Below are positions 262 through 30,187 of a stretch of 64,000 nucleotides of DNA, piece after piece. Below the pieces are notes generated by a model. The model searched no databases. It had not been told where the DNA came from and worked only from the letters and a program-made list of their open reading frames with translations. The translations under genes were made by a program, and so were the position numbers. The stretch covers positions 1,440,001-1,504,000 of the forward strand of contig CP000070.1 in assembly GCA_000002445.1 (NCBI GenBank), in the 5' to 3' direction. Numbering within the stretch: the first letter of the stretch is position 1; the number at the start of each line of letters is the position of its first letter. This stretch comes from Trypanosoma brucei. Taxonomy: Eukaryota.

Positions 262-265
<4 letters not shown>

Positions 266-304
<39 letters not shown>

Positions 305-5931: not shown

Positions 5932-8900
5932 ATGGAGAGAACGGAGGATGTAACATATTTAAAACTCATTCCAATGTGTACTGCAGCCGAAAGGAGTGAA
6001 GCATCACTTCTGCTCGGCACTTTCGTTGGATGTTTCAGCGAAAACGATAAATTAGATCTTGAAGTGTGTGATGACAGCCGATATGTACTGCGTGGCATAC
6101 GTAAGTCGTTACGGCAACTGGTTTATGACGGTAACGGAGTTGAGGCGAAGGAAACCCTCGAGCGACTTGTGCACATTGTTTGTGAGCGAAGGATGGCAAC
6201 AGCTGCATTGCGCTCTCCTTTTGTAGCACCGAACACCTTAACATGTTATTTGCCATCCAGTGCACAATGTGAACGGAGGGGTGGAGTTACAATGTTACGG
6301 GTGCTGCGAGAATTAGTCGGAACCGCTTCCTCGCTAAATAATTCCATCGAATTGAATGAATCCGGCGATTACACCGGATGGCCTGTTTCTGTATTGCCTT
6401 GCCCTTTATTGTACGTTGTGTACTATTTGACCAGCGCTCAATGTAGCGAGGGCTCAAAGGACGACTTCTGCAGTCCGTGGGCAAAGCTATTTTTCGGCGA
6501 GTTACTGTCGTTAGAAGGAACTGAGAATGATGAACTTGAAGCTGTAGTGGCATCTTACGATGATATGCCGGGTACGTGTACGTGTGGGCCAACATCACGT
6601 GAAAATCTTCCACATACGCAGCAGCCGCTTCTAATGAAAAAGATCCGGCATAATATTACACGGCTCTTCTCCACTTCATTTCCTCACCATGGTGCGTGGC
6701 GTCTACTTTCTTTCATGGATGTCTATTCAGCGTGGATAAGGCGGGATTTGCACCGTGCATTGGATGGCGCTACGCAAGCATTGCATGCTGCGACGTTTGG
6801 CGAAGACAAATGCACTATGCTGTGGATTGCACGACATGTTTTGCGGTTTATTCATGCTTTTGCTGTTGCAGCAACGACAAACTTGGCGAACCACGACTCG
6901 CGACGTGAGATGGAATATAAGCTCGAGCACGTAAACTCTCATTACAATTCCTCCGATGACGACAGTTTTGCATGCAATGATAGCATCGCCAGCCAATTGT
7001 ATTTTCCACATTCCCCGTCTTTGCTCTTGGATGTGCGGGAGAATTTCCGCTTTGTGTTGTTTAGCGATTGGCCTGATTGCAGTGAGGCAGGTGAGCGTCG
7101 TGGAGAGGACAAAACGACATTCTGCAGAGGTGATGGTGTTGCATCCCGGCAAACAAAGCACGTAAACCACCGGCGCTCCAGCGGGAATAGTGATAACCTC
7201 CCAAGTGGAAGCGCCACGTCTCGGCAGTTCGGCACTTGCCGGGTCTCGTTATTTGTCTCTCTTCTGGAAGTGTGGCTTCGCGCTAAAAAACATACTGATG
7301 CTGGTGAGATGGTCGAATCCCGCATCTTGATAGTAAATACTCTGGACAGCCTGTTTGACAATAGCGCTTCCGATGAGGTGCCAAAAGGACCGTTCTCCGC
7401 ATGGGAGCACCGCACTGCCGAATACATGTGTCCAATTCAGTGGCTTCGTCAAGTGCTACTTGTCAACTGTGCAGCACTTGTCGACAGTCCAACCGTTTTG
7501 CACATGCTTTGGAATTGGCCCCATCCACTTACTACAGGGGAGTCAGTTTTCCTGGCCGTGTGCCCAACGCTAACCGCTGGTGGGTTGCACTCACCCATCC
7601 TCTCTTGTGTTCCCTTCTGCCCAACGACTTCACCGATGTGCTTGGATGATTTTATTCAACTTGTGGATTGTTGGCCCCTTCCTGTGCAGGTGCCATTGTT
7701 GATGCAGCGGATTTGGTATAAGCAACAGGAACTTCAGCGGCCATCTGTCGACAAGGGGGGTAACAGAAACACCAAGGGCTATAATTCTACAGAAGATGAT
7801 ATGTGCTGTGAGGAAGGAGAACGACGACTTTCTCTGCAGTGGGAAGTTTTACATCTTTGTGAGATCCTTGTTGACCGTGCACGAGGACTATCTGGAACTC
7901 TCGAATTAAGTTTCACGGAATGCTCTCCACACCGCGCTCTGCTCGAGGCAATTACGACGGTGTGCGAGTTGCAGGAGGATATTCTACGCGTAACAGCTAC
8001 CTGTTTAGCGGGTGATCACCAAACTTCTTCATCCAGATCGCCGAGCAGCGGCAGCGTCAGTAGCGACGGCACTGAGGTTGAGGTCCCAAATCGTGCAGAC
8101 ATCACAACTGCTTTGGGTTCATGTGAAGAGCTTGTTTGCCTTCGTTGCAGAGAAGCATTTGAAGATTCTGCTTCATTATTCCATAGGAATGGACCGACTG
8201 ATAAGGATGACCAACGTGAGAAGTTGGCTGGTAGTGGCGGCCACAAAACCAATGCAACGGAAGATCCACTGTTGTTTCATTTATTTCCCATCATCTCGAC
8301 CACAAAACCAGTGGTGGCGCATGAAGTATTTTGGCTTGCGCACAAGCAACTGCCCCGGTGGGCTGCGGTTTTCCTGCAAAACTACGGTTACCTCAAGGTT
8401 TCTGCGGCTGTGTGCAGGCTGCGGATTGCAGCCGCTGCCTTCGATCCCACGACACCACAACTCGCGGCGGAGATGCTGGCTGCTTTTCCTAATAATGCGG
8501 TGGTAGCTGTTCATGCTGCTGCATCGTTATTTGCGAGTCTTCACATTGTTCAGGCGAAACAATGCATCAACGAGGCGGTTCAGGAGTACCCTCACTCAGC
8601 GGAGTTGCACCGTGTTTTCCACATGATACATTCCAGCGGTAACAGAAAGCAGCTGAGGGACCAGCTTAAGGAAACGCCTCAACGCAGTCGGCACAAGAAT
8701 ATTGCAGGTATTACTTACTCGCATCAGTACCGTGGGATGTGTACTGTGCGCTACAAGGTTGCGCAATGCGACAGTGTTGCACACTGGTTGCAAGTATTTG
8801 CCTCTGTTGTCTGTGTGTTTTTTTGGATAGCTTCACTCGGCCTCTATTTTTTTGATAATGTTTTAAGAACCGCGGTAGATGTCAGTGATTCCCCGCCACC

Positions 8901-10155
8901 TTCATTCCAGACTTCTAACGAAACAGCGATTGATGGCACACCGACGCATGGTGCAAGAAGACGCTGGTCGTTTAAGTTATTTTTTTCTCCTCTTATTTAC
9001 CTTTCTGCGTTTCTTCTTGTATACGCGATTACCGCTGCCGTTGTTGTTCCCATTCTTGCGGGACGTCAATCTAAATGGAAACGGCGATGTGCACTCGTGA
9101 ACAGGTTCCTTCGCTCTTTGCTTGAGGAGCAATCTCTTGTGAACACTGCTCTTAACAGAATAAACTTCTGTCTTCGCGGTATGGCACTTGTGAACATCAT
9201 AACAGCTGTACAGCTCGTCACAAGCAACATAATTTCCCTTCGTACCCCAGATTATCGTCTTGAAGCGACGAACTGGATGAGCACTAAGTCCCATGTACCA
9301 AATACGTTACCGGATGGTGATTTTACCAATTGGTGTATTGCTTTGTCGCTTCTACTACCTGTGCTTTTATTTGGAGTTGCCTTTCATGGTACCGCGTGGC
9401 GAGTGGTGCGTGGCTGCGATACTATGGTAGGATCCGCAACAACGTATACTACCGTTTTTTTCATTGACTTAACCACTTTTATTATATTTTTTCCTCTTCA
9501 CTTTATCTGTTCTGTGTTGGTAGAACCACTACTTTTTACTCTTGTGGCTGCGTTTACCATCGGGACATCATTACCTGTACTGCTTGAGCGACTACCTCTT
9601 GTGCCACCCGACAGCCTGCTCCACCCTTTGAGTTGTCCAAGCGCCGATGAAAAAAAACAGTGCCATGACAGAAACGACTTCTGTGCTCGATCGGCATCTT
9701 TCTTTTCTAATCGGTTACTTGCGAATATGCCACCCACGAAGTGGTCACCCAATCTCAACTGTGTAAGAGCACTGCTCTGCGCACACGAGGTGGTGTGGCC
9801 TCCGGACAGGGCACAGAAAACTAAATCCCAACATCGCTTCAACAATTTTTGCAGTGGCATTAATAACACTAATGGTTGCCAACACCCCCTCCAACAACTG
9901 CTTTGCCGCTGCATCAGGTGGTACATTACGATGCACAGTTTTCTTTTCTGGGGCTCGGTCGCTCGTTATGAAAAAAGCAGATCAGCGGTACGTTTGGAAC
10001 TCGTCCATGAGGGATACAGGGAGTTTTTTCAACCACAATCAGCTGCGTCATGGGAAACCGCAACGCAGGACAGTAACGAACTTCGGGTGGTCACACTCCC
10101 TTTTAAATCGTTAGACCATCAAAAAATGCCAAAATCAGAAACATTGTTTGGTTGA
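5932..10155 (+). CDS. Hypothetical protein of 1407 aa. The N-terminal ~1000 aa look soluble; the C-terminal ~400 aa carry at least 6 predicted transmembrane helices.
   Basis: Long uninterrupted ATG-initiated ORF. Hydrophobic helix-length segments in the C-terminus include VAHWLQVFASVVCVFFWIASLGLYFF, LIYLSAFLLVYAITAAVVVPILA, WCIALSLLLPVLLFGVAFHG and TTVFFIDLTTFIIFFPLHFICSVLVEPLLFTLVAAFTIGTSLPVLL. No family recognised. Confidence 0.8.
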   Translation: MERTEDVTYLKLIPMCTAAERSEASLLLGTFVGCFSENDKLDLEVCDDSRYVLRGIRKSLRQLVYDGNGVEAKETLERLVHIVCERRMATAALRSPFVAPNTLTCYLPSSAQCERRGGVTMLRVLRELVGTASSLNNSIELNESGDYTGWPVSVLPCPLLYVVYYLTSAQCSEGSKDDFCSPWAKLFFGELLSLEGTENDELEAVVASYDDMPGTCTCGPTSRENLPHTQQPLLMKKIRHNITRLFSTSFPHHGAWRLLSFMDVYSAWIRRDLHRALDGATQALHAATFGEDKCTMLWIARHVLRFIHAFAVAATTNLANHDSRREMEYKLEHVNSHYNSSDDDSFACNDSIASQLYFPHSPSLLLDVRENFRFVLFSDWPDCSEAGERRGEDKTTFCRGDGVASRQTKHVNHRRSSGNSDNLPSGSATSRQFGTCRVSLFVSLLEVWLRAKKHTDAGEMVESRILIVNTLDSLFDNSASDEVPKGPFSAWEHRTAEYMCPIQWLRQVLLVNCAALVDSPTVLHMLWNWPHPLTTGESVFLAVCPTLTAGGLHSPILSCVPFCPTTSPMCLDDFIQLVDCWPLPVQVPLLMQRIWYKQQELQRPSVDKGGNRNTKGYNSTEDDMCCEEGERRLSLQWEVLHLCEILVDRARGLSGTLELSFTECSPHRALLEAITTVCELQEDILRVTATCLAGDHQTSSSRSPSSGSVSSDGTEVEVPNRADITTALGSCEELVCLRCREAFEDSASLFHRNGPTDKDDQREKLAGSGGHKTNATEDPLLFHLFPIISTTKPVVAHEVFWLAHKQLPRWAAVFLQNYGYLKVSAAVCRLRIAAAAFDPTTPQLAAEMLAAFPNNAVVAVHAAASLFASLHIVQAKQCINEAVQEYPHSAELHRVFHMIHSSGNRKQLRDQLKETPQRSRHKNIAGITYSHQYRGMCTVRYKVAQCDSVAHWLQVFASVVCVFFWIASLGLYFFDNVLRTAVDVSDSPPPSFQTSNETAIDGTPTHGARRRWSFKLFFSPLIYLSAFLLVYAITAAVVVPILAGRQSKWKRRCALVNRFLRSLLEEQSLVNTALNRINFCLRGMALVNIITAVQLVTSNIISLRTPDYRLEATNWMSTKSHVPNTLPDGDFTNWCIALSLLLPVLLFGVAFHGTAWRVVRGCDTMVGSATTYTTVFFIDLTTFIIFFPLHFICSVLVEPLLFTLVAAFTIGTSLPVLLERLPLVPPDSLLHPLSCPSADEKKQCHDRNDFCARSASFFSNRLLANMPPTKWSPNLNCVRALLCAHEVVWPPDRAQKTKSQHRFNNFCSGINNTNGCQHPLQQLLCRCIRWYITMHSFLFWGSVARYEKSRSAVRLELVHEGYREFFQPQSAASWETATQDSNELRVVTLPFKSLDHQKMPKSETLFG

Positions 10156-10533
10156 AAAATACTATCCTTCAAGTTGCCTCATTTCTTTTTATTTTTCAAC
10201 ACTTTAATGGTTTTTTGTCGTTTTTTTTTCCAACTTGAACTACCTGTACTACCGTTGCATTTTTTTTTATGAAGTTGGGGTGTTCTCTGCCTTTTTTGTG
10301 GAGATGCAGCCATACTTTGTTACCACTAACGAGTGTGGTAGCTATCTTTTTCGGCTACAGTCGTCACGGATAAGGATGCCTTGCGTGCATTGTGCCGCCA
10401 TCCCTCCATGTATGTCTTCTTGATGATACTCGTTTACTTCTTTCTTTGACCTTTCCCACTGTTTATTTTTGCTGACGTGTACGAAAGAGGCACTGTGACA
10501 CTCCAGTTGCAATTAAGTAATAACACCTGAGGT

Positions 10534-12195
10534 ATGTATACAACAACAGACCTCATACAGACGCGGGTCGCTCCAGCACACTTGTTTGTTATTGTCTACT
10601 TTCTACAGTGGTTGTTTGTGGCGAGTACCGCATCTGGCGAGAGTGTTCATGCGATCTTCAAAATATCGAAATCTGGAGATGCACCCTTCTTCAAACAAGC
10701 TGAGAGGCACTGCGAGCGCGCTAAAATGCGTCTTGCGACGCCGACGACGGCAAAGGGGGCGACTGCTGTGAAGAAGTTGCTGAAACGCTGCGGTCCATCT
10801 GATGTACCCGTACTTGGCGGTGGCCTAAGCGTGCGATGCAGCAGTAACTCTTTTTTCTTCTTGTGGTCACCGAAACTGGATGAACCCAAGTACCCTGTTG
10901 AGGACACAGCACCATACTGCGGGGAACGCGATCCGCGAGGGTGGGGGACCAAGTGTGTGACAAGGAACAGGAGTGCGGGGAGGTTATTTTACCAATTTCA
11001 TACATCTGAGGGCGAGAAAGGGAACTGTACCGGACCTGTGACAATGGACTATGACCCGGCGATTCTCTATGAATTGGAGGTCCCTAGTGCTGGTGAGGAG
11101 GGTCTCCTCGCATGGGTTGTCTCGCGTGGTGGCAAGAACGGAAGCACTGCTGCGCTTAGGAGCCTTCGATCAGACTTGGAGGACACATCCCGCGCATACA
11201 TTGGAGATTCGAGCAAAATGATCGAGTACGTCCTGTGTGAGGGTGGAAGGTCCTCCGTCGTGTCTTCCACATCATGCTATTCCGTTTCTTATGCTTCTGT
11301 GCCAAATGTTGGCGGTTCAAGTCGAACGGGTGTTCATTGGTTGGTGATTGTCTTCCTCTCCTTCATCGGATTGATTGTGTTATGTGTAGTAACCCTGTCT
11401 ATTGTCGGTGGAGTTACGAAAAAAGTAACCGCAGGGAATGTTGATCGGGGAGACAACACTGGTAGTGGACGGCGACGAACCTCTTTGTCTCACAGCAGCT
11501 GGCATGTAATGAGCCAACCAGGAGGCAGCAGCGGGATTCAATATTCTCGTCGTGGTAGCCAGCCGGGTAACATCCTTTCTCCGCTTCAAGATGCTGCGAG
11601 CATTAACATGCAACGCTATGAAAGCGATGGGGTAGCCGCTGTACCTCGGCAAGGAAGCTTTAACGGCAGAAACACACAACAGCGAAGTAGTTTACCAACA
11701 AACGTAAATCAAGCGCAACAAAATTACAACACAAACAGAGTTACGTCACAAGTAAGCAATTATAGCGCAAGCTTACATCGTCTCGGGAGCTTCCGTGGCC
11801 CCATCATCCATCGTCAAGGAAGCTTCAACAACATTACCTCCGTACCAGCAGGGAATACCTATACTGGGGGTTTATCGCGTCCTGGGAGCTTCCGTGGCTC
11901 AAGCCCCAACCATCAAGGAAGTTTTAACCGTAGTGATATATTTCGCGATCCTAGTCTCTATGGTGAATCTCCTCCTCACGGTGATCCACGCTTGGGTTTA
12001 AACCCTCTTCGGGACATTGGCTACGACAGGGGAAATGCCCCAGAGCAGGTGAGCCTTTCTTCGGTCGGTATGGCCCAACAGGGCAACTTTGCAAACGTTG
12101 GTGCACGTGGCGGGAGCTTCCGAGGAATAAACCGCAACCAACAAGGAAGTTTCCGCAACTCGAACCCGCCGTCTGGTGGTTTGTTTAACACGTAG
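10534..12195 (+). CDS. Type-I membrane protein (553 aa), paralogue A. It has a signal peptide, a Cys-containing ectodomain, one transmembrane helix, and a Ser/Gly/Asn/Gln-rich cytoplasmic tail with reiterated R-x-G-S-F motifs.
   Basis: ATG at 10534. N-terminal hydrophobic segment LFVIVYFLQWLFVASTASG. Transmembrane helix VHWLVIVFLSFIGLIVLCVVTLSIVGGV. The tail contains RRGSQ, RQGSFN, RLGSFRG, RQGSFNN, RPGSFRG, HQGSFNR, RGGSFRG and QQGSFRN. Confidence 0.8.
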   Translation: MYTTTDLIQTRVAPAHLFVIVYFLQWLFVASTASGESVHAIFKISKSGDAPFFKQAERHCERAKMRLATPTTAKGATAVKKLLKRCGPSDVPVLGGGLSVRCSSNSFFFLWSPKLDEPKYPVEDTAPYCGERDPRGWGTKCVTRNRSAGRLFYQFHTSEGEKGNCTGPVTMDYDPAILYELEVPSAGEEGLLAWVVSRGGKNGSTAALRSLRSDLEDTSRAYIGDSSKMIEYVLCEGGRSSVVSSTSCYSVSYASVPNVGGSSRTGVHWLVIVFLSFIGLIVLCVVTLSIVGGVTKKVTAGNVDRGDNTGSGRRRTSLSHSSWHVMSQPGGSSGIQYSRRGSQPGNILSPLQDAASINMQRYESDGVAAVPRQGSFNGRNTQQRSSLPTNVNQAQQNYNTNRVTSQVSNYSASLHRLGSFRGPIIHRQGSFNNITSVPAGNTYTGGLSRPGSFRGSSPNHQGSFNRSDIFRDPSLYGESPPHGDPRLGLNPLRDIGYDRGNAPEQVSLSSVGMAQQGNFANVGARGGSFRGINRNQQGSFRNSNPPSGGLFNT

Positions 12196-13365
12196 GGAGT
12201 TCGCGCCATCTTTTGGCTTCACCCAATGGGAGTAGTTTGGTGTTGCTTGCTGACGTGCCTTTGACCAATGCGGAGATGAGTACATCCGCATATCGAACCA
12301 ATTAGTTACTACAGCGTCTGTGTTAGGTCATTGCCTTACATCCTTCGCTACTTCACTGTATCATCGGATTGAGTATTTTACCACTGTTACTCCCCTCTAC
12401 ATATATTCGCGTTTATACCCTTACCCTACGGTTTTGTCAAATATATATATATATACATGTGTGTGCGTGTGAAGTTTCCCCCACTTTGTTTTGAGTGCAT
12501 TCGCTACGACATGCGTGACAGTGACGCTATTTGGACCACTTCGTTGCGTACGTATCGTAGGCTGCACAGCGAGCACCTTCGCATCGCCTCATTGTTTACG
12601 ATGTGGTCACGCTCCACCCTCTCTTTTTCACTGCGACATGGTTGAACTATGAGTTTGGAGTTGACCCTCCATAGTACTGTCGTGTATTTCGTGTTATTCT
12701 TTTTTTTTTCTCTGTTGTCTCCGCTTGTGCCTTGCTTATGCTTCTATTTTCTTTGTGCCTTCTATTTCCCCGTTTCCGTCAGTGGCTCTACAGTCTGAGT
12801 GAGTGCGGTGGTGAAATGCGGTGTATTGCGCAATGCGCGTGTCAACTGCTTCCTTTCCTTTTGTTTGATATTATTTCCCTCATCATTTTCTTTTCAGACG
12901 TTTTATTATTTTCTGTTATTATTATTATTATTTATTTTTTATTCTTTGCTCATTCATTACCGAGGGTACCGTAATAGATATGATGTGGTATTGGCTTACT
13001 GCTACACCTTTTCTTACTATCCCGCAACCTTGTTCTAGTCCTTTGGAGGGGGTAAGTCACTCCAGAGATTACGATGGGATAAAATGAGTCGGCCGATTGT
13101 TTATATGTTACTCGGGGTGCGCAATGCTGAACGTTTTGTTGTGTGTACAGAGGATTCTTTGCCTTCTTTACTCTTTACCATGTTCTTTCAATTATTTTCT
13201 TACTTCTCCCATAATAGTAAGGTGTGATTATACTCAAGTGGATATCCGTGTGTGACGTGTGCTGGTGCCAATAGGCGTGCTAAACACACGAGTCTCCCTC
13301 TTCAGTGATAAACTCGATTTAACATTTATTTGTAATTCTTACCACTGACCATTCATCTTCATGCG

Positions 13366-16086
13366 ATGTCTGCCTCTCGATCTCCCTCTGGCAGTGGGAG
13401 TTTGTATCCCGCTGGCACCATGTCAACGGGATGTTCCCTGCCTTCATTGACGTGTCCCCCGAAACTTGGTGTGGGCAAGGTTGAGGGCAGTAGCGACACT
13501 GTTTCCATGGAGCGCTCGCAAGCTGGCAGCCAGTGGGCCGGCGGGACACATGCTGAAGAAGTGTGGGCATGCAAAAATGCTGCTTACACCAGGGCAATGA
13601 AATATTCCAAAGGATTGGTTGCGGACGTGGTGGATAGTTCGGTAGAATTCCTGCCACGCCGTCTCATGAGGAGTTCTGTGAACCACAGTATAAAGGACAG
13701 GAAATCGTCTTTCAGTGTCATGGCTGATGTTGGGCGCGACACGCAACAGCAATCTTTGGCTGCCACAAGCTGCAAAGGTACTTCATCCACTCCCATGAGT
13801 GAAGCCACATTCCCATTCCTTGACGGTGGGAAGGTACAACCAACGGATCCAGGGCACCTAAAAGCTGGAATTACGTACGATCCGCAGTCGTATGGATCGC
13901 TTTTACCCACGACGCTGAAGGTACGATCCGTTGAGGAAGCTGTGAGTGGCCCTCTAATGGGGGTTGCGGCTAACGAAATGTTTGCAAACCGAGATGCTAA
14001 ACAGATGTTGAGGGGTATTCTCCAGCCGGTACAGAAGACTTCGCAATTTTCACAGTACTTTGATCGACAACAGTTTGAGGGTAAAATGAGGCAGTTGGAG
14101 GAAAGCGCGCGACACTTCAGCAAATGTCTTGCTCAGCGTGTGTCTTCCAGTACCGGTGGTGGTGGTGTGATGATTGTCGTAAACGATTCTGATGATGGGA
14201 GCTCCGACGACGGTGGTTTGATGGGTGACGGTGTGAGACGCAGAGCTCGAAAGCCCGCCAAAATGGTAGACGAAGCGCGAGTAGCTGGCGACGCTGAATC
14301 TAATGCCCGGAAACAGCGACTTAACGCACTTCGTTGCACTCCACAGAATCTTTGTAGCTCGGTGGCGTTGCGTGATGCGTTGAAGAAAAGCAGGATTACG
14401 GTGAAGAAAGCACGATGCAGTGCTGTTAATGTAGCAAGACACAGCTCTGATCTACTGGAGCTTCTGCGGAGGAGAGGATCGAGGAGCACTGGTCCCCAGG
14501 AAGCGATGGTTGTTTTGCCCAACGAAGAGGTTTCATGGGACACGGGATCTGTTTCACCGAATAAGTGTACCCAAGCCTCATTTGCGTCGATACCGGATTC
14601 TGCATGTGGTAATGAGGGTCACCGCACCAAGGTTGTTACAGACCAGCGCGCTGTAACAATGCTGGAGTCGTTTTTGCGCAGCGGCAAGGGATTGACGACT
14701 CATGGTATTTTACCTGCAACACTGTATGGCAATCACTGTGGCCCCAATGGCGGCCAGTTGATCCCTGCACCAGAATCTTCGCGGTTACCATCAATGCTAG
14801 ATACTGCTTTCAGTGATGTTTTCTCCACTGGTGCATTATCACCAAGTGGGCAGCAGCTAGCGGCATCAGCAGAGTGCTTGCAACAGCAGAGGAAAAGTGT
14901 CCACCGTACGAAACCAGCCCGCCGTGTGATTCCTGTTGGTTACGGGATGAGTGCTCGTGCCCGTCAAAACTACGAGGCGATGGTGGAGAACTGGGAGGTG
15001 AGTGAGATCGAGCAAGAGCTTCGGAACGGGGAAGCATTATGCCACGCCCGCCGTCGGCTGCTGAAGCTCGTGTCTGAGCGCAAACGGTTGTTAAACGCGT
15101 CGCTCGCGCACTTCCACCATAACCCGCAGCAAGCCGTGTCGCTGCAGCGGCGTGAGATATTCCGGATGGTTGTCGAGGTTGATGCCGAGGACCGTAAGCA
15201 GGCGTGTTTTTCATTTGTTGATTTGCTTGAACAGTGCTGCCGGAACACTCTGGATGATGCCGCATGGTCTGTTGTTTCCGGCGCCTTGAAGTCTAGCCGC
15301 GATCTTATCCAACTCTCTCCACTACGGTGCAACCCGCAGAATTTCATTTCCATTCTGAACGACTGTCTGTCATTGCAGCATATCCGGGATCAGCGCGTTC
15401 AAGATGCTCTACAGTGGTTAGCAAAACTCTTTGGTGTATCGCAAGGGCAATTCAAGTCTGCACTACAATCATTGCACCACAACCTCAACAAGCCACGCGA
15501 TTACGAGGCACGGTTCCATGAAATTGACAGCCGCGTGTGTGGGATAGCAGCGTCCACTGAGAGACGTGTTCGTATTAAACTGCGCCGTTGCAACTTTCAG
15601 CTTCCCCGTCCTGTGGGTGCTGGCAACCAAATGAACCCCCTTGTCACCAGCAATGGTGATGGCGCTGTGGGCTGTGTGTTGGGTCCCAACACCTGTGTTG
15701 ATCGTCCTGAAGTATCGCTCGTTTTTCAGCTGGGAAATGAAACTGCCGTCTCCTCAACACTCAGCGCTCATCGTAGCGGTACCGGAGGGAGTGGTGATGT
15801 GGTGTGTGAGATGGTTGATGACGCCCCGTGCTATGTGGTTGACTTCAATGACGAAATTGTGCAGCTGAAGACTGTGGACACCAGTGTGGTACGCGTCTCT
15901 CTTTACTGCAACGGCAACGTTCTTTGCAGTGGCTTCTTGCACCTGTCCAAGTGTACTTTCCACAGTAATCGTACCTTATCTGTCATTCTTCGTCTCGACA
16001 ACAAAAGAATATTTGTGGCTGATCTGAGGATCAATGTGGAGCTTGTGTATGGAAGGGACCGCCGGGGGCGGGGTGGGAGAAGGTAG
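13366..16086 (+). CDS. Hypothetical protein of 906 aa (copy A). It has no recognisable domain and an acidic Asp/Ser-rich patch flanked by basic stretches.
   Basis: ATG-initiated 2.7-kb ORF duplicated at 19902-22622; the two copies differ at 3 amino-acid positions. Confidence 0.75.
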   Translation: MSASRSPSGSGSLYPAGTMSTGCSLPSLTCPPKLGVGKVEGSSDTVSMERSQAGSQWAGGTHAEEVWACKNAAYTRAMKYSKGLVADVVDSSVEFLPRRLMRSSVNHSIKDRKSSFSVMADVGRDTQQQSLAATSCKGTSSTPMSEATFPFLDGGKVQPTDPGHLKAGITYDPQSYGSLLPTTLKVRSVEEAVSGPLMGVAANEMFANRDAKQMLRGILQPVQKTSQFSQYFDRQQFEGKMRQLEESARHFSKCLAQRVSSSTGGGGVMIVVNDSDDGSSDDGGLMGDGVRRRARKPAKMVDEARVAGDAESNARKQRLNALRCTPQNLCSSVALRDALKKSRITVKKARCSAVNVARHSSDLLELLRRRGSRSTGPQEAMVVLPNEEVSWDTGSVSPNKCTQASFASIPDSACGNEGHRTKVVTDQRAVTMLESFLRSGKGLTTHGILPATLYGNHCGPNGGQLIPAPESSRLPSMLDTAFSDVFSTGALSPSGQQLAASAECLQQQRKSVHRTKPARRVIPVGYGMSARARQNYEAMVENWEVSEIEQELRNGEALCHARRRLLKLVSERKRLLNASLAHFHHNPQQAVSLQRREIFRMVVEVDAEDRKQACFSFVDLLEQCCRNTLDDAAWSVVSGALKSSRDLIQLSPLRCNPQNFISILNDCLSLQHIRDQRVQDALQWLAKLFGVSQGQFKSALQSLHHNLNKPRDYEARFHEIDSRVCGIAASTERRVRIKLRRCNFQLPRPVGAGNQMNPLVTSNGDGAVGCVLGPNTCVDRPEVSLVFQLGNETAVSSTLSAHRSGTGGSGDVVCEMVDDAPCYVVDFNDEIVQLKTVDTSVVRVSLYCNGNVLCSGFLHLSKCTFHSNRTLSVILRLDNKRIFVADLRINVELVYGRDRRGRGGRR

Positions 16087-17112
16087 GAACGGCTCGTGAG
16101 TCTGTGTGGCCTTTGCTCACATAAATGGTCACGGGATTAACGTTCGAATGTATGTGTATCTTTGTGCATATGTGCACTGTGCGTTTGCTGTAACATGAAA
16201 CTGTCCTGGATATGATAATGTTTCTTCACGCTTGTGTTTTATTGGTTTGCGTAAACGGGAACCGTCACATGAGCAATGTTAGCCTTTCTTTTTTTCCTTT
16301 ACTTGCTGTACATGTTATGGATGAGAGCCTTGTTTGTTCTGCTCTTTATCCTTCCCTCTCTCATACACACACTTTCACCGTTTCTTTTCCATTATTTTAT
16401 AACTGATTGATGGTCATTAGAGGTCGAGTGTGCTTCACTGCTGGGGTAGCGGTAAGGGGCGCGCAAAAACCCACACGTTTGTGTGGTGTCATTGAGGCTG
16501 GTAATGGAAGGTCGTTTACTCTCCAGTATTTTTCGGAATTACGATTTGTATTTTTATCATAGTGAGTAATTTGTTTTTTTCTAGACTTCATGCACACCTT
16601 TTAGATTTTCTGTTGCTGTTTTAAAGAACGATGTATTATTTTTGTCGTTTTGTTACTGCTGCTCCCATTTTTTATCTATTCGTCCCTTATTATGGTGTGA
16701 GCTCTTTTAACTTTACTGCCGTTATGGCACTGTGGCTGAGGCAATCTTTTAAAACTTTAGATTAATTTTTTTTTAAAATCACTTTTATGGTTTTTTGTCG
16801 TTTTTTTTTCCAACTGAACTACCTGTACTACCGTTGCATTTTTTTTTATGAAGTTGGGGTGTTCTCTGCCTTTTTTGTGGAGATGCAGCCATACTTTGTT
16901 ACCACTAACGAGTGTGGTAGCTATCTTTTTCGGCTACAGTCGTCACGGATAAGGATGCCTTGCGTGCATTGTGCCGCCATCCCTCCATGTATGTCTTCTT
17001 GATGATACTCGTTTACTTCTTTCTTTGACCTTTCCCACTGTTTATTTTTGCTGACGTGTACGAAAGAGGCACTGTGACACTCCAGTTGCAATTAAGTAAT
17101 AACACCTGAGGT

Positions 17113-18735
17113 ATGTATACAACAACAGACCTCATACAGACGCGGGTCGCTCCAGCACACTTGTTTGTTATTGTCTACTTTCTACAGTGGTTGTTTGTGG
17201 CGAGTACCGCATCTGGCGAGAGTGTTCATGCGATCTTCAAAATATCGAAATCTGGAGATGCACCCTTCTTCAAACAAGCTGAGAGGCACTGCGAGCGCGC
17301 TAAAATGCGTCTTGCGACGCCGACGACGGCAAAGGGGGCGACTGCTGTGAAGAAGTTGCTGAAACGCTGCGGTCCATCTGATGTACCCGTACTTGGCGGT
17401 GGCCTAAGCGTGCGATGCAGCAGTAACTCTTTTTTCTTCTTGTGGTCACCGAAACTGGATGAACCCAAGTACCCTGTTGAGGACACAGCACCATACTGCG
17501 GGGAACGCGATCCGCGAGGGTGGGGGACCAAGTGTGTGACAAGGAACAGGAGTGCGGGGAGGTTATTTTACCAATTTCATACATCTGAGGGCGAGAAAGG
17601 GAACTGTACCGGACCTGTGACAATGGACTATGACCCGGCGATTCTCTATGAATTGGAGGTCCCTAGTGCTGGTGAGGAGGGTCTCCTCGCATGGGTTGTC
17701 TCGCGTGGTGGCAAGAACGGAAGCACTGCTGCGCTTAGGAGCCTTCGATCAGACTTGGAGGACACATCCCGCGCATACATTGGAGATTCGAGCAAAATGA
17801 TCGAGTACGTCCTGTGTGAGGGTGGAAGGTCCTCCGTCGTGTCTTCCACATCATGCTATTCCGTTCCTTTTATCCTATCAGTTGCAAGTAGCGATGACAA
17901 GTCGCATTTTGATCATCGGCACAACGTCACTATTGGTATATTGGTTTTAATTGTTTTAATTTTAATTATTGTAGCCGCTTTCTTAATTTTGTGGCTCCTT
18001 TCACGGAACCGTCCGGCAGGTGATGTTGAGGAAAACCGGCGCAACGGATCAGATGTACAGAGAACTGTCGTTGAGTCGGTTGGTGATTTAGGTGGAACTG
18101 TTAGATCCGAAAGCTACTCGGGGCGAGGTAGCAAGTCGGGTGACAATCTTTGTCGTCCGGAAAATGTAAACGGTAATTGTCCCCAGGTGAATAATGGATT
18201 CTGTGTTAACGGATCCCCCCAACAAGAAAATTTGCAAATGAATGCCCCTGGACAACAACCAAATTTTAACTACCACAGCACAACACCCGAAATACAAACA
18301 TACAGTGGCGAAATGGAACTACGGACTAACTTTGGTGGTCCTATCTTGTACCGCCAAGGAAGCTTCAGACAAAATATAACCTCCGACGTCAATCCAACAC
18401 CGCTAAGCGCCACACAGCGTCCTGGGAGCTTCCGTGGCTCAAGCCCCAACCATCAGGGTTGTTTCAACCGTAGTGATGTATTTCGTGAGCCTAGTCTCTA
18501 TGGTGAATCTCCTCCTCACGGTGATCCACGCTTGGGTTTAAACCATCCTCGGGACATTGGCTACGACAGGGGAAATGCCCCGGAGCAGGTGAGCCTTTCT
18601 TCGGTCGGTATGGCCCAACAGGGCAACTTTGCAAACGTTGGTGCACGTGGCGGGAACTTCCGAGGAATAAACCGCAACCAACAAGGAAGTTTCCGCAACT
18701 CGAACCCGCCGTCTGGTGGTTTGTTTAACACGTAG
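17113..18735 (+). CDS. Type-I membrane protein (540 aa), paralogue B. The N-terminal 263 aa are identical to paralogue A. The transmembrane and juxtamembrane segment is diverged. The C-terminal ~100 aa are near-identical.
   Basis: ATG at 17113. Transmembrane helix IGILVLIVLILIIVAAFLILWLL. The tail carries YRQGSFRQN, RPGSFRG, GGNFRG and QQGSFRN. Confidence 0.8.
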   Translation: MYTTTDLIQTRVAPAHLFVIVYFLQWLFVASTASGESVHAIFKISKSGDAPFFKQAERHCERAKMRLATPTTAKGATAVKKLLKRCGPSDVPVLGGGLSVRCSSNSFFFLWSPKLDEPKYPVEDTAPYCGERDPRGWGTKCVTRNRSAGRLFYQFHTSEGEKGNCTGPVTMDYDPAILYELEVPSAGEEGLLAWVVSRGGKNGSTAALRSLRSDLEDTSRAYIGDSSKMIEYVLCEGGRSSVVSSTSCYSVPFILSVASSDDKSHFDHRHNVTIGILVLIVLILIIVAAFLILWLLSRNRPAGDVEENRRNGSDVQRTVVESVGDLGGTVRSESYSGRGSKSGDNLCRPENVNGNCPQVNNGFCVNGSPQQENLQMNAPGQQPNFNYHSTTPEIQTYSGEMELRTNFGGPILYRQGSFRQNITSDVNPTPLSATQRPGSFRGSSPNHQGCFNRSDVFREPSLYGESPPHGDPRLGLNHPRDIGYDRGNAPEQVSLSSVGMAQQGNFANVGARGGNFRGINRNQQGSFRNSNPPSGGLFNT

Positions 18736-19901
18736 GGAGTTCGCGCCATCTTTTGGCTTCACCCAATGGGAGTAGTTTGGTGTTGCTTGCTGACGTGCCT
18801 TTGACCAATGCGGAGATGAGTACATCCGCATATCGAACCAATTAGTTACTACAGCGTCTGTGTTAGGTCATTGCCTTACATCCTTCGCTACTTCACTGTA
18901 TCATCGGATTGAGTATTTTACCACTGTTACCCCCCTCTACATATATTCGCGTTTATACCCTTACCCTACGGTTTTGTCAAATATATATACATACATATGT
19001 GTGCGTGTGAAGTTTCCCCCACTTTGTTTTGAGTGCATTCGCTACGACATGCGTGACAGTGGCGCTATTTGGACCACTTCGTTGCGTACGTATCGTAGGC
19101 TGCACAGCGAGCACCTTCGCATCGCCTCATTGTTTACGATGTGGTCACGCTCCACCCTCTCTTTTTCACTGCGACATGGTTGAACTATGAGTTTGGAGTT
19201 GACCCTCCATAGTACTGTCGTGTATTTCGTGTTATTCGTTTTTTTTTCTGTTGTCTCCGCTTGTGCCTTGCTTATGCTTCTATTTTCTTTGTGCCTTCTA
19301 TTTCCCCGTTTCCGTCAGTGGCTCTACAGTCTGAGTGAGTGCGGTGGTGAAATGCGGTGTATTGCGCAATGCGCGTGTCAACTGCTTCCTTTCCTTTTGT
19401 TTGATATTATTTCCCTCATCATTTTCTTTTCAGACGTTTTATTATTTTCTGTTATTATTATTATTATTTATTTTTTATTCTTTGCTCATTCATTACCGAG
19501 GGTACCGTAATAGATATGATGTGGTATTGGCTTACTGCTACACCTTTTCTTACTATCCCGCAACCTTGTTCTAGTCCTTTGGAGGGGGTAAGTCACTCCA
19601 GAGATTACGATGGGATAAAATGAGTCGGCCGATTGTTTATATGTTACTCGGGGTGCGCAATGCTGAACGTTTTGTTGTGTGTACAGAGGATTCTTTGCCT
19701 TCTTTACTCTTTACCATGTTCTTTCAATTATTTTCTTACTTCTCCCATAATAGTAAGGTGTGATTATACTCAAGTGGATATCCGTGTGTGACGTGTGCTG
19801 GTGCCAATAGGCGTGCTAAACACACGAGTCTCCCTCTTCAGTGATAAACTCGATTTAACATTTATTTGTAATTCTTACCACTGACCATTCATCTTCATGC
19901 G

Positions 19902-22622
19902 ATGTCTGCCTCTCGATCTCCCTCTGGCAGTGGGAGTTTGTATCCCGCTGGCACCATGTCAACGGGATGTTCCCTGCCTTCATTGACGTGTCCCCCGAAA
20001 CTTGGTGTGGGCAAGGTTGAGGGCAGTAGCGACACTGTTTCCATGGAGCGCTCGCAAGCTGGCAGCCAGTGGGCCGGCGGGACACATGCTGAAGAAGTGT
20101 GGGCATGCAAAAATGCTGCTTACACCAGGGCAATGAAATATTCCAAAGGATTGGTTGCGGACGTGGTGGATAGTTCGGTAGAATTCCTGCCACGCCGTCT
20201 CATGAGGAGTTCTGTGAACCACAGTATAAAGGACAGGAAATCGTCTTTCAGTGTCATGGCTGATGTTGGGCGCGACACGCAACAGCAATCTTTGGCTGCC
20301 ACAAGCTGCAAAGGTACTTCATCCACTCCCATGAGTGAAGCCACATTCCCATTCCTTGACGGTGGGAAGGTACAACCAACGGATCCAGGGCACCTAAAAG
20401 CTGGAATTACGTACGATCCGCAGTCGTATGGATCGCTTTTACCCACGACGCTGAAGGTACGATCCGTTGAGGAAGCTGTGAGTGGCCCTCTAATGGGGGT
20501 TGCGGCTAACGAAATGTTTGCAAACCGAGATGCTAAACAGATGTTGAGGGGTATTCTCCAGCCGGTACAGAAGACTTCGCAATTTTCACAGTACTTTGAT
20601 CGACAACAGTTTGAGGGTAAAATGAGGCAGTTGGAGGAAAGCGCGCGACACTTCAGCAAATGTCTTGCTCAGCGTGTGTCTTCCAGTACCGGTGGTGGTG
20701 GTGTGATGATTGTCGTAAACGATTCTGATGATGGGAGCTCCGACGACGGTGGTTTGATGGGTGACGGTGTGAGACGCAGAGCTCGAAAGCCCGCCAAAAT
20801 GGTAGACGAAGCGCGAGTAGCTGGCGACGCTGAATCTAATGCCCGGAAACAGCGACTTAACGCACTTCGTTGCACTCCACAGAATCTTTGTAGCTCGGTG
20901 GCGTTGCGTGATGCGTTGAAGAAAAGCAGGATTACGGTGAAGAAAGCACGATGCAGTGCTGTTAATGTAGCAAGACACAGCTCTGATCTACTGGAGCTTC
21001 TGCGGAGGAGAGGATCGAGGAGCACTGGTCCCCAGGAAGCGATGGTTGTTTTGCCCAACGAAGAGGTTTCATGGGACACGGGATCTGTTTCACCGAATAA
21101 GTGTACCCAAGCCTCATTTGCGTCGATACCGGATTCTGCATGTGGTAATGAGGGTCACCGCACCAAGGTTGTTACAGACCAGCGCGCTGTAACAATGCTG
21201 GAGTCGTTTTTGCGCAGCGGCAAGGGATTGACGACTCATGGTATTTTACCTGCAACACTGTATGGCAATCACTGTGGCCCCAATGGCGGCCAGTTGATCT
21301 CTGCACCAGAATCTTCGCGGTTACCATCAATGCTAGATACTGCTTTCAGTGATGTTTTCTCCACTGGTGCATTATCACCAAGTGGGCAGCAGCTAGCGGC
21401 ATCAGCAGAGTGCTTGCAACAGCAGAGGAAAAGTGTCCACCGTACGAAACCAGCCCGCCGTGTGATTCCTGTTGGTTACGGGATGAGTGCTCGTGCCCGT
21501 CAAAACTACGAGGCGATGGTGGAGAACTGGGAGGTGAGTGAGATCGAGCAAGAGCTTCGGAACGGGGAAGCATTATGCCACGCCCGCCGTCGGCTGCTGA
21601 AGCTCGTGTCTGAGCGCAAACGGTTGTTAAACGCGTCGCTCGCGCACTTCCACCATAACCCGCAGCAAGCCGTATCGCTGCAGCGGCGTGAGATATTCCG
21701 GATGGTTGTCGAGGTTGATGCCGAGGACCGTAAGCAGGCGTGTTTTTCATTTGTTGATTTGCTTGAACAGTGCTGCCGGAACACTCTGGATGATGCCGCA
21801 TGGTCTGTTGTTTCCGGCGCCTTGAAGTCTAGCCGCGATCTTATCCAACTCTCTCCACTACGGTGCAACCCGCAGAATTTCATTTCCATTCTGAACGACT
21901 GTCTGTCATTGCAGCATATCCGGGATCAGCGCGTTCAAGATGCTCTACAGTGGTTAGCAAAACTCTTTGGTGTATCGCAAGGGCAATTCAAGTCTGCACT
22001 ACAATCATTGCACCACAACCTCAACAAGCCACGCGATTACGAGGCACGGTTCCATGAAATTGACAGCCGCGTGTGTGGGATAGCAGCGTCCACTGAGAGA
22101 CGTGTTCGTATTAAACTGCGCCGTTGCAACTTTCAGCTTCCCCGTCCTGTGGGTGCTGGCAGCCAAATGAACCCCCTTGTCACCAGCAATGGTGATGGCG
22201 CTGTGGGCTGTGTGTTGGGTCCCAACACCTGTGTTGATCGTCCTGAAGTATCGCTCGTTTTTCAGCTGGGAAATGAAACTGCCGTCTCCTCAACACTCAG
22301 CGCTCATCGTAGCGGTACCGGAGGGAGTGGTGATGTGGTGTGTGAGATGGTTGATGACGCCCCGTGCTATGTGGTTGACTTCAATGACGAAATTGTGCAG
22401 CTGAAGCCTGTGGACACCAGTGTGGTACGCGTCTCTCTGTCCTGCAACGGCAACGTTCTTTGCAGTGGCTTCTTGCACCTGTCCAAGTGTACCTTCCACA
22501 GTAATCGTACCTTATCTGTCATTCTTCGTCTCGACAACAAAAGAATATTTGTGGCTGATCTGAGGATCAATGTGGAGCTTGTGTATGGAAGGGACCGCCG
22601 GGGGCGGGGTGGGAGAAGGTAG
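19902..22622 (+). CDS. Hypothetical protein of 906 aa (copy B).
   Basis: Substitutions relative to copy A: P to S at IPAPESS / ISAPESS, N to S at GAGNQ / GAGSQ, and T to P with Y to S at LKTVDTSVVRVSLY / LKPVDTSVVRVSLS. Confidence 0.75.
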   Translation: MSASRSPSGSGSLYPAGTMSTGCSLPSLTCPPKLGVGKVEGSSDTVSMERSQAGSQWAGGTHAEEVWACKNAAYTRAMKYSKGLVADVVDSSVEFLPRRLMRSSVNHSIKDRKSSFSVMADVGRDTQQQSLAATSCKGTSSTPMSEATFPFLDGGKVQPTDPGHLKAGITYDPQSYGSLLPTTLKVRSVEEAVSGPLMGVAANEMFANRDAKQMLRGILQPVQKTSQFSQYFDRQQFEGKMRQLEESARHFSKCLAQRVSSSTGGGGVMIVVNDSDDGSSDDGGLMGDGVRRRARKPAKMVDEARVAGDAESNARKQRLNALRCTPQNLCSSVALRDALKKSRITVKKARCSAVNVARHSSDLLELLRRRGSRSTGPQEAMVVLPNEEVSWDTGSVSPNKCTQASFASIPDSACGNEGHRTKVVTDQRAVTMLESFLRSGKGLTTHGILPATLYGNHCGPNGGQLISAPESSRLPSMLDTAFSDVFSTGALSPSGQQLAASAECLQQQRKSVHRTKPARRVIPVGYGMSARARQNYEAMVENWEVSEIEQELRNGEALCHARRRLLKLVSERKRLLNASLAHFHHNPQQAVSLQRREIFRMVVEVDAEDRKQACFSFVDLLEQCCRNTLDDAAWSVVSGALKSSRDLIQLSPLRCNPQNFISILNDCLSLQHIRDQRVQDALQWLAKLFGVSQGQFKSALQSLHHNLNKPRDYEARFHEIDSRVCGIAASTERRVRIKLRRCNFQLPRPVGAGSQMNPLVTSNGDGAVGCVLGPNTCVDRPEVSLVFQLGNETAVSSTLSAHRSGTGGSGDVVCEMVDDAPCYVVDFNDEIVQLKPVDTSVVRVSLSCNGNVLCSGFLHLSKCTFHSNRTLSVILRLDNKRIFVADLRINVELVYGRDRRGRGGRR

Positions 22623-23465
22623 GAACGGCTCGTGAGTCTGTGTGGCCTTTGCTCACATAAATGGTCACGGGATTAACGTTCGAATGTATGTGTATCTTTG
22701 TGCATATGTGCACTGTGCGTTTGCTGTAACATGAAACTGTCCTGGATATGATAATGTTTCTTCACGCTTGTGTTTTATTGGTTTGCGTAAACGGGAACCG
22801 TCACATGAGCAATGTTAGCCTTTCTTTTTTTCCTTTACTTGCTGTACATGTTATGGATGAGAGCCTTGTTTGTTCTGCTCTTTATCCTTCCCTCTCTCAT
22901 ACACACACTTTCACCGTTTCTTTTCCATTATTTTATAACTGATTGATGGTCATTAGAGGTCGAGTGTGCTTCACTGCTGAGGTAGCGGTAAGGGGCGCGC
23001 AAAAACCCACACGTTTGTGTGGTGTCATTGAGGCTGGTAATGGAAGGTCGTTTACTCTCCAGTATTTTTCCGTATTCTGTATGTTTTCCTAACAGGTTGT
23101 CATACCGTAGATATCTATGTGGATTACGGTTTATCAAGTTTCTTACGTTTTTTCCTGGCAATACTCGTGCGAATGGTTATTGCGATAATCTTTTTTTGGG
23201 TTTTAACCTTTATTGTCAACGTAACGTTTCTGGAAGGGCATATAACGGGCGCAATATCGATATCCCTAGTCCCCCGGCACCTCTAACTCTGAATTCGTTG
23301 GTATCTTACGTGACGGAATTGCGTTTGTTACACAGATCATGTGGCGTATCGGTGTCAGCTTCTCGCGTTCGATTCCAAGCACGTGAGTTTCTTACTCGTG
23401 GTATTGCGAAAGATCTCTTTTGCTCTGATACCGACAAGGGGAGTACTGCATTGTGCAATGGTGGA

Positions 23466-29838: not shown

Positions 29839-30187
29839 GATACATTTGTATTCGGGTTGTAGGGAAAGGTAGCAGTAGGAAACCCTCTAGTGTTGCTTCC
29901 ACCGCCCACGTTCCTGATTTTACACTGTGGTGGTCGTAGTGCTTTAAGAGGAAGTGTGAACGAGTTTAAAGTAAATCAGCAACAAAAACCAAACTGCAAA
30001 ACGTTGGACACATCCTTCTGGGCCGCTGGTGCAATAGACGTACGCACCGTCAGGAAAAAAAAAAATAAAACATTGTCAGCAAAAACAAAGAAAGAAAATT
30101 GCCGCTACCTCTTGAAGCAACAGTTGTGAAGAGTGACCTCTGTTGCTGTGCATTTTTTGTATCAACTGTTGTTGACTTCGTGTGGCG

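What the first reader, a model, noticed from the sequence alone, without database searches (positions are those of the whole stretch)
10200..23075. Recent ~6.3-kb tandem segmental duplication carrying a two-gene cassette.
Two direct copies (10200-16540 and 16780-23075) are essentially identical in their flanking and intergenic DNA. The two 906-aa ORFs differ at only 3 codons. Each unit carries a ~550-aa membrane-protein gene plus a 906-aa orphan gene. A ~240-bp unique junction (16541-16779) separates the copies. This is a locally amplified gene array inside an otherwise single-copy directional cluster. In trypanosomatids, which lack transcriptional control, copy number is a main way of raising expression, so the amplification is probably adaptive or strain-variable.
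Basis: seen in the sequence. Interest (0 to 1): 0.7.

Follow-up and report, generated by a model that had tools for sequence, protein, structure and literature searches.

The report
Old tandem duplication kept alike by conversion
The two-gene tandem duplication on Trypanosoma brucei chromosome 7 is real, but it is old rather than recent: ongoing gene conversion keeps the copies about 99.4% alike, except for one roughly 590-bp block that gives the membrane protein two distinct transmembrane/tail versions, a pattern already well known from trypanosome gene arrays.

Summary
The window is T. brucei brucei TREU927 chromosome 7. The genes are Tb927.7.5400 to Tb927.7.5430, upstream of the lipin gene Tb927.7.5450.

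- **Duplication:** it is real. Copy 1 is 10186-16534 and copy 2 is 16766-23070, joined by a unique 231-bp junction. The copies are 99.4% identical.
- **Missed block:** It is only about 50% identical in DNA and 29% in protein. It encodes the juxtamembrane segment, the transmembrane helix and the proximal cytoplasmic tail, giving a 553-aa and a 540-aa isoform.
- **Not recent:** T. b. gambiense DAL972 has the same two units, junction and block. Outside the block, 36 sites separate the strains while both copies agree within each strain. Only 11 sites are copy-specific, and these are clustered. Copies within a genome differ by 0.3%; positional orthologues differ by 0.9-1.0%. This is concerted evolution.
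- **Not an orphan:** the 906-aa gene has full-length homologues across Trypanosoma and a C-terminal C2-fold domain.
- **Other species:** T. vivax duplicated the same cassette with different breakpoints. T. theileri and T. grayi assemblies show one cassette.

The phenomenon is well known in T. brucei, so interest is modest.

The parts
10186..16534 (+). Repeat unit, copy 1 (6349 bp). It starts 30 bp after the stop codon of the upstream 1407-aa gene.
   Evidence: Self-BLASTN; windowed identity.
10534..12195 (+). Gene A1, the 553-aa type-I membrane protein (XP_846163 / Q582F5; Tb927.7.5400 by position). It has a signal peptide, an 8-Cys ectodomain, one transmembrane helix, and a tail of about 250 aa with seven R-x-x-S-F-type motifs.
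11291..11876 (+). Divergent block, copy-1 version (codons about 253-448: juxtamembrane segment, transmembrane helix, proximal tail). This version resembles the T. congolense homologue.
   Evidence: 49% nucleotide difference from copy 2; 1.5% from the DAL972 orthologue.
11877..12116 (+). Transition zone at the right edge of the block. It holds six copy-specific sites conserved in DAL972, including S463C and S528N, which remove motif serines in the 540-aa isoform.
13366..16086 (+). Gene B1, 906 aa (XP_846164; Tb927.7.5410 by position). The N-terminal half is disordered, followed by a helical domain and a C-terminal C2-fold domain.
15871..15905 (+). Cluster of three copy-specific sites in gene B (T836P, a silent change at L846, Y847S), shared by TREU927 and DAL972. 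This short tract has escaped homogenisation.
16535..16765 (+). Unique 231-bp junction between the copies (32% GC, 46% T). It is present in DAL972 and absent from the IVM-t1, OVI and Logan contigs.
16766..23070 (+). Repeat unit, copy 2 (6305 bp).
17113..18735 (+). Gene A2, the 540-aa isoform (XP_846165 / Q582F7 = Tb927.7.5420). Its ectodomain is identical to A1 through residue 251 (first difference at 252); the transmembrane helix and tail block differ, and only three motifs are intact.
   Evidence: first amino-acid difference at residue 252; gene ID and isoform-specific phosphopeptide.
17870..18416 (+). Divergent block, copy-2 version (codons about 253-435).
19902..22622 (+). Gene B2, 906 aa (XP_846166 / Q582F8 = Tb927.7.5430).

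Best explanation
This is an old tandem duplication of a conserved two-gene cassette. Gene A encodes a type-I membrane protein and gene B a C2-domain protein. The duplication arose before T. b. brucei and T. b. gambiense separated.

Since then, recombination between the misaligned copies (gene conversion, possibly also unequal crossing-over) has repeatedly overwritten one copy with the other. Coding and non-coding DNA therefore stay about 99.4% identical within each genome.

Homogenisation stops at a block of about 590 bp in gene A that is too divergent to recombine. I infer that selection also retains this block.

The outcome is roughly a double dose of gene B, plus two isoforms of gene A. The isoforms share an identical ectodomain and a nearly identical C-terminus. 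They differ in the juxtamembrane segment, the transmembrane helix and the motif-bearing proximal tail.

**Shown:** the anatomy of the duplication, its presence in two subspecies, the concerted-evolution signature, and its tract-like mosaic.

**Inferred:** conversion as the specific mechanism, the block acting as a recombination barrier, and functional differentiation of the isoforms.
For: 1. Collinear copies at 99.4% identity with a unique junction.
2. DAL972 has the same two units, junction and block in one contiguous stretch.
3. Outside the block there are 36 sites where both copies agree within a strain but differ between strains, 11 copy-specific sites and 0 crossed sites.
4. At 12201-16534, paralogue divergence is 0.30-0.31% and orthologue divergence is 0.88-1.04%. 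Inside the block the relation reverses: 49% versus 1.5%.
5. Copy-specific sites are clustered next to the block and at 15871-15905: 8 runs observed against 17.9 expected, P = 1e-4. This is the expected footprint of conversion tracts.
6. In both strains the two gene A N-termini changed together (MYTTT...H...V in TREU927, MCTTT...Q...F in DAL972).
7. The two blocks are collinear and weakly homologous (BLASTP E = 0.003, 23% identity). This fits deep divergence rather than a foreign insertion.
8. The 553-aa block is nearer to T. congolense (36%) than to its own paralogue (29%).
9. Both block versions have pN/pS below 1 between strains (0.39 and 0.18; small counts).
10. A 540-isoform-specific phosphopeptide is reported (S444).
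11. Concerted evolution with mosaic divergence is documented for T. brucei tandem arrays (PMC1855330; PMC2854126).
Against: - The DAL972 assembly is a shotgun draft ordered against TREU927. Reads from the two copies could have been mixed, which would inflate the strain-pattern count. The TREU927 side does not depend on that.
- No reads were available, so copy number is unverified.
- Conversion events were not observed directly. Unequal crossing-over could give the same pattern.
- Selection on the block rests on 8-9 substitutions per copy.
- It is unresolved whether the duplication predates the T. brucei / T. congolense split. The T. congolense locus could not be fetched.
Confidence: 0.8

Rival explanations
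1. One reading: a recent duplication, still nearly identical because little time has passed, retained for higher expression.
For: Identity is 99.4% over about 5.8 kb including non-coding DNA. Dosage is the accepted rationale for trypanosome arrays (abstract of PMC1855330). One assembly (IVM-t1) shows a single unit.
Against: - The duplication, junction and block are shared with T. b. gambiense.
- Copies are three times closer within a genome than orthologues are between genomes.
- A block about 50% divergent lies inside otherwise identical DNA.
- The IVM-t1 assembly is low-coverage and mostly short-read.
Confidence: 0.05
2. A duplication followed by replacement of the block in one copy. The 540-type block would have been imported by ectopic conversion or insertion from another gene's transmembrane/tail region, rather than diverging in place.
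For: The left boundary is very sharp: identity is 100% up to about 11286 and then about 50%. The 540 block is the odd one out against T. congolense (25% versus 36%).
Against: - No donor exists among 5.8 billion proteins. Only the 553-type, the 540-type and one T. congolense protein were found, with both single-sequence and profile queries.
- The blocks are collinear with residual homology, and motifs are conserved in register (YS-RGS, GPI-RQGSF).
- This rival would still require the event to predate the subspecies split.
Confidence: 0.1
3. An assembly artefact: one real unit written twice.
For: Near-identical repeats are a classic source of mis-assembly. Other assemblies of this locus are collapsed or gapped.
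Against: - The copies carry distinct blocks, 31 further substitutions outside the block (7 + 11 + 13) and a unique junction.
- An independent assembly (DAL972) reproduces this structure.
- The OVI scaffold contains both block types.
- A peptide specific to the 540 isoform is reported.
Confidence: 0.02

Closest known systems
T. brucei tandem gene arrays with 'mixed dynamics' and concerted evolution (Jackson 2007, PMC1855330; Jackson et al. 2010, PMC2854126)
   Same: Tandem duplicates in one polycistron are homogenised within a genome. Subspecies-specific mosaics occur, and structurally divergent segments escape homogenisation. The explanation is the same: conversion and unequal crossing-over decline with sequence dissimilarity.
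   Different: Those surveys covered arrays with more than 3 copies, and this locus is absent from their table. Here the repeat unit holds two unrelated genes. The escaping segment is an internal coding block flanked on both sides by homogenised DNA, not a terminal copy with remodelled UTRs.
PGK (phosphoglycerate kinase) and hexose transporter (THT1/THT2) arrays of T. brucei, as summarised in PMC1855330
   Same: Tandem copies exchange sequence by gene conversion yet keep isoform-specific segments that give differently targeted or differently used proteins.
   Different: For PGK and THT the isoform functions are established experimentally. Here the difference lies in the transmembrane helix and the phospho-motif tail of an uncharacterised membrane protein, and the function is only inferred. 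The 3' flanks of the two gene A copies are nearly identical (5 mismatches in 1170 bp), so stage regulation through the 3' UTR is unlikely.
Tandem duplication of the syntenic cassette in T. vivax (GCA_021307395.1, locus L005)
   Same: The same A-B cassette is duplicated head-to-tail between the same flanking genes, and the copies are 99.2-99.5% identical.
   Different: The breakpoints differ. The unit is about 8 kb. It starts 187 bp inside the upstream gene and ends inside the downstream gene, creating a truncated 767- to 821-aa copy. The gene A copies differ only in the number of 36-bp repeats (9 versus 13 RQQSF motifs), and there is no divergent block.

Membership tests
Tandem segmental duplication | Two adjacent, collinear, direct copies with identity far above chance | tested here: met
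   1.1 kb plus 4.66 kb at 99.4%, same order and strand; windowed identity.
Tandem segmental duplication | Not an assembly artefact: copy-specific features reproduced in independent data | tested here: met
Concerted evolution of tandem paralogues | Paralogues within a genome are more similar than positional orthologues between genomes, although the duplication is shared | tested here: met
   0.30-0.31% versus 0.88-1.04%; 36 strain-pattern versus 11 paralogue-pattern sites. Shared junction.
Concerted evolution of tandem paralogues | Mosaic, tract-like distribution of homogenised and non-homogenised sites | tested here: met
   runs test, 8 observed versus 17.9 expected, P = 1e-4.
Concerted evolution of tandem paralogues | Gene conversion, rather than unequal crossing-over, is the homogenising mechanism | not testable with these tools
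   This needs population haplotypes or experimental recombination assays.
Dosage array in the sense of the published T. brucei surveys | More than 3 tandem copies | tested here: not met
   Two copies in TREU927 and DAL972. The survey criterion is given in PMC2854126.
Dosage array in the sense of the published T. brucei surveys | Copies encode the same product | tested here: inconclusive
   Gene B: 4 differences in 906 aa. Gene A: 553-aa versus 540-aa isoforms, 29% identical over the block.
Recent (post-subspecies) duplication | Absent from, or structurally different in, the sister lineage | tested here: not met
   DAL972 carries the same structure.
C2-domain protein (gene B, C-terminus) | Eight-stranded beta-sandwich with the C2 fold | tested here: met
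C2-domain protein (gene B, C-terminus) | Sequence-profile match to C2 (Pfam), and calcium- or lipid-binding loop residues | tested here: not met
   No Pfam family for gene B or six homologues. Loop residues were not examined.
Type-I membrane protein (gene A) | N-terminal hydrophobic signal sequence plus a single internal transmembrane helix | tested here: met
   Hydropathy segments at 12-35 and 263-299 (553 aa) or 267-301 (540 aa). The transmembrane helix is the only confident part of the AF2 model. Topology is inferred, not measured.
Orphan (lineage-restricted) gene, as claimed for the 906-aa ORF | No homologues outside the species | tested here: not met
   Exhaustive HMMER search: 15 hits, 7 with E <= 1e-30 (the query's own T. 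brucei cluster plus six homologues). Five of the six are named Trypanosoma species; the sixth is an unnamed Logan protein. Synteny confirmed in T. vivax, T. theileri and T. grayi.

The most novel reading that the evidence does not exclude
The block is not simply a stretch that conversion cannot cross. It is a selectively maintained isoform switch in a genus-wide receptor-like protein.

The tail of this protein family is defined by repeated R-x-x-S-F motifs, which fit a basophilic-kinase or 14-3-3-type consensus. Counts are 7 in T. congolense, 9 and 13 in T. vivax, 10 in T. theileri and 7 in the 553-aa isoform.

The 540-aa isoform keeps the identical ectodomain but has a different transmembrane helix and has lost the serine in 4 of the 7 motifs. 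Two of these losses are point changes outside the block (S463C, S528N) that are conserved in DAL972.

On this reading T. brucei keeps a phosphorylatable and a largely non-phosphorylatable version of one surface sensor. T. vivax would have reached a comparable result independently, by duplicating the same cassette and varying the motif number.
Probability: 0.25. Interest if true: 0.5.

Novelty: new member of a known kind. Interest (0 to 1): 0.3.

Why it matters
**Practical point.** Near-identity of trypanosome tandem copies must not be read as recency. This locus is a clean two-copy example in which the shared junction, the strain-specific site pattern and an internal unconverted block can all be seen together.

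**Assembly and mapping.**
- Short-read assemblies collapse the locus. OVI, and probably IVM-t1, mis-annotate the genes there.
- Reads, RNAi fragments and peptides outside the block cannot distinguish Tb927.7.5400 from Tb927.7.5420, or Tb927.7.5410 from Tb927.7.5430.
- Only the block of about 590 bp can tell the gene A copies apart, and it can serve as an isoform-specific probe.

**Biology.** The locus flags an uncharacterised, genus-wide membrane protein with repeated R-x-x-S-F tail motifs, next to a C2-domain protein. Both were co-duplicated in two salivarian lineages, which makes them a candidate pair for experimental study.

Tried and rejected
- **Pfam:** scans of genes A and B, the flanking genes and their homologues gave nothing above threshold. 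Sub-threshold hits (RDM3_C, SIT) are driven by the repeats or the transmembrane helix.
- **Structure of gene A:** AF2 with a 3-sequence alignment failed (pLDDT 31), so the ectodomain fold is unknown. The afdb50 fold library was unavailable.
- **Locus look-ups:** the T. congolense locus and the TREU927 proteins were not on record in the contig index. Copy number in T. congolense is therefore unknown.
- **Is the 540-type block ancient?** I compared it with the T. theileri, T. vivax and T. grayi homologues. The scores are dominated by transmembrane-helix composition, and only the 553-T. congolense match is convincing. I rejected this as evidence.
- **Origin of the junction:** a search for remnants of the flanking genes found only 11-13-nt chance matches.
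- **IVM-t1 single unit:** I considered it as evidence of copy-number variation and downgraded it after reading how the assembly was made. Its copy-1-type left part and copy-2-type right part fit either a real unequal-crossover deletion or a collapse.
- **RNA genes:** Rfam and tRNA scans of the window found none, so this is not a snoRNA cluster.
- **Literature:** full-text and supplement searches for the four gene IDs gave three hits. These were a yeast two-hybrid list entry for Tb927.7.5430 and phosphosites for Tb927.7.5420 and Tb927.7.5430. The cell-surface phylome and surface-proteome papers had no hits.
Full report
**1. Identity of the window**

- The proteins of the duplicated genes match T. 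brucei brucei TREU927 chromosome 7 entries XP_846163 to XP_846166 (AAX78876 to AAX78873) at 99-100%.
- The gene at 30182-32608 is a lipin. The published TbLpn is Tb927.7.5450, accession AAX78871, two accessions further along.
- A phosphoproteomics supplement lists Tb927.7.5420 as UniProt Q582F7, with a peptide that exists only in the 540-aa protein.
- A second supplement lists S42 and S361 for Tb927.7.5430, both of which are serines in the 906-aa protein.
- The four genes are therefore Tb927.7.5400 (553 aa), Tb927.7.5410 (906 aa), Tb927.7.5420 (540 aa) and Tb927.7.5430 (906 aa). The first two assignments follow from position only.

**2. The observation**

Self-BLASTN gives two collinear matches: 10186-11290 = 16766-17869 and 11877-16534 = 18417-23070, both 99.4% identical. 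Between the copies lies a unique, T-rich 231-bp junction (16535-16765) with no other match in the window.

A 100-bp windowed alignment drops from 98-100% to about 26-51% identity with indels over 11291-11876 versus 17870-18416. The left edge is abrupt. The right edge grades over about 240 bp. Unit-wide identity is 93.9%.

The 906-aa ORFs differ at 7 nucleotides and 4 residues.

**3. What the genes encode**

*Gene A.*
- It has an N-terminal hydrophobic signal sequence, an ectodomain of about 215 aa with 8 cysteines and 3 N-glycosylation sequons, one transmembrane helix and a tail of about 250 aa.
- The two copies are identical through residue 251 and 94% identical over the last 105 residues.
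- Over the block they are 29% identical, yet collinear, with a BLASTP E-value of 0.003.
- Homologues lie at the syntenic position in T. vivax, T. theileri and T. grayi at 24-28% identity. T. congolense has a homologue at 37-42%.
- All share a tail made of R-x-x-S-F-type motifs: 7 in T. congolense, 9 and 13 in the two T. vivax copies, 10 in T. theileri and 7 in the 553-aa isoform, but only 3 in the 540-aa isoform.
- The juxtamembrane and transmembrane segment of the 553-aa isoform matches T. congolense (36% identity over the block). The 540-aa version matches it less well (25%).

*Gene B.*
- It is not an orphan. An exhaustive HMMER search finds near full-length homologues in T. congolense, T. 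vivax, T. grayi, T. theileri and T. cruzi marinkellei at 28-38% identity.
- An AF2 model built on these sequences has low overall confidence. It shows a helical region at 530-725 (pLDDT mostly 56-91 in 10-residue blocks, with a dip at 712-731) and a confident beta-sandwich at 733-895.
- No Pfam family matches either protein.

**4. Age and mode of evolution**

- The T. b. gambiense DAL972 locus is collinear with the window through both units, the junction and both blocks.
- I aligned the four units (two per genome) and classified the variable sites outside the block. At 36 sites both copies agree within a strain but differ between strains. Eleven sites are copy-specific in both strains. None are crossed.
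- Over 12201-16534, paralogues differ by 0.30-0.31% and positional orthologues by 0.88-1.04%. In the block the order reverses: 49% versus 1.5%. In the 324 bp to the right of the block, paralogues (2.8-3.4%) again exceed orthologues (1.85%).
- The copy-specific sites are clustered beside the block and at 15871-15905 (runs test P = 1e-4).
- At the protein level, both gene A copies carry Y2/H16/V21 in TREU927 and C2/Q16/F21 in DAL972.

This is the classical signature of concerted evolution. The duplication predates the subspecies split, and most of the unit has been homogenised since then, in tracts that end at or near the divergent block. The published surveys of T. brucei arrays describe the same behaviour and attribute it to gene conversion and unequal crossing-over that decline with sequence dissimilarity. 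Those surveys were limited to arrays with more than 3 copies, and this locus is not in their table.

**5. Is the block functional?**

- Between the strains, the two block versions have pN/pS of 0.39 and 0.18. The counts are small (8-9 substitutions each).
- The 540-aa isoform is detected as a phosphopeptide unique to it.
- Two of the six copy-specific sites just outside the block replace the serine of a motif in the 540-aa isoform (S463C, S528N).
- I therefore think both isoforms are expressed and constrained. The idea that they differ in phospho-regulation or membrane partitioning is an inference.

**6. Other lineages**

- T. vivax has a tandem duplication of the same cassette at 99.2-99.5% identity, but with different breakpoints. 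The unit begins 187 bp inside the upstream gene and ends inside the downstream gene, leaving a truncated copy of that gene.
- Different breakpoints favour an independent event. An ancestral duplication that was later remodelled cannot be excluded.
- The T. theileri and T. grayi assemblies show one cassette, but they contain N gaps next to gene B.
- T. congolense could not be examined.

**7. Copy-number variation**

- The IVM-t1 assembly has a single hybrid unit: copy-1-type up to 12116 and copy-2-type from 15871. This is what an unequal-crossover deletion would leave, and also what a collapsed assembly would produce.
- The assembly used about 7,500 PacBio reads plus short reads, so I give it little weight.
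- The OVI scaffold joins the 553-type block directly to the 540-type block across 10 Ns. That strain has both blocks, and its assembly is collapsed.

**8. Verdict**

The duplication is real, and the organism call is right. 'Recent' and 'orphan' are wrong. The dosage interpretation holds at best for gene B. The locus is a tidy, previously undescribed example of a well-documented phenomenon in a long-annotated reference genome. Interest is modest (0.3). Novelty: new member of a known kind.

Noticed in passing
window 60235-64000: A second tandem duplication with a period of about 2.3 kb: 60235-60701 = 62550-63016 and 61097-61657 = 63440-64000, both 99.4% identical. It carries a 208-aa MOB1-like ORF (61093-61719), and the second copy runs off the window. 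The cluster is therefore not otherwise single-copy.
   Followed up: partly
window 1-5000: A very AT-rich stretch (25% GC, against about 48% in the rest of the window). It is rich in TA/TG microsatellites and T tracts. TRF finds no tandem array and there are no tRNA or Rfam hits. It sits at the head of the + strand gene cluster, and the IVM-t1 assembly aligns there at only 94% with many indels. It may be a strand-switch or transcription-boundary region.
   Followed up: partly
window 23040-23070 and 16504-16534: The ATG that gives the annotated 1988-aa downstream protein (23040) lies 31 bp inside the repeat. Copy 1 therefore carries the same ATG at 16504, which opens only a 21-codon ORF. Homologues of the downstream protein align only from about residue 79-85, so the true start may lie further downstream.
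   Followed up: partly
L005 (T. vivax, GCA_021307395.1) 6936-22427: An independent-looking tandem duplication of about 8 kb of the same cassette. It creates a truncated copy of the downstream gene (called as 767 aa; an 821-aa ORF from GTG at 12609) that reads into duplicated upstream-gene DNA in another frame. The two gene A copies differ by four 36-bp repeats (479 versus 527 aa).
   Followed up: partly
L004 (T. equiperdum OVI) 7953-7962; L003 (DAL972) 7099-7198 and 9098-9890: Assembly and annotation artefacts caused by the repeat. The OVI scaffold fuses the 553-type block to the 540-type block across 10 Ns, and a 165-aa fragment is annotated there. DAL972 has a 100-N gap that truncates gene B1 to a 590-aa 'fragment'. 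It also has two small ORFs (116 and 123 aa) called at 9098-9890, from the 3' flank of gene B1 across the junction (9421-9651) into the upstream flank of gene A2.
   Followed up: yes
window 15121-15612 (gene B residues about 586-749): The most conserved helical part of gene B also matches proteins of 1100-2500 aa from unnamed Logan assemblies (E = 1e-9 to 3e-16). None of these has a Pfam domain. This looks like an undescribed domain shared with larger proteins of unknown organisms.
   Followed up: partly
Logan and OVI gene B variants (P0010, P0014-P0018): The two copy-specific residues T836/Y847 (copy 1) and P836/S847 (copy 2) occur in recombinant combinations in other isolates (T...S in five Logan assemblies). 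In the collapsed OVI scaffold, T...Y lies downstream of a 540-type gene A. This fits continuing exchange between the copies.
   Followed up: no
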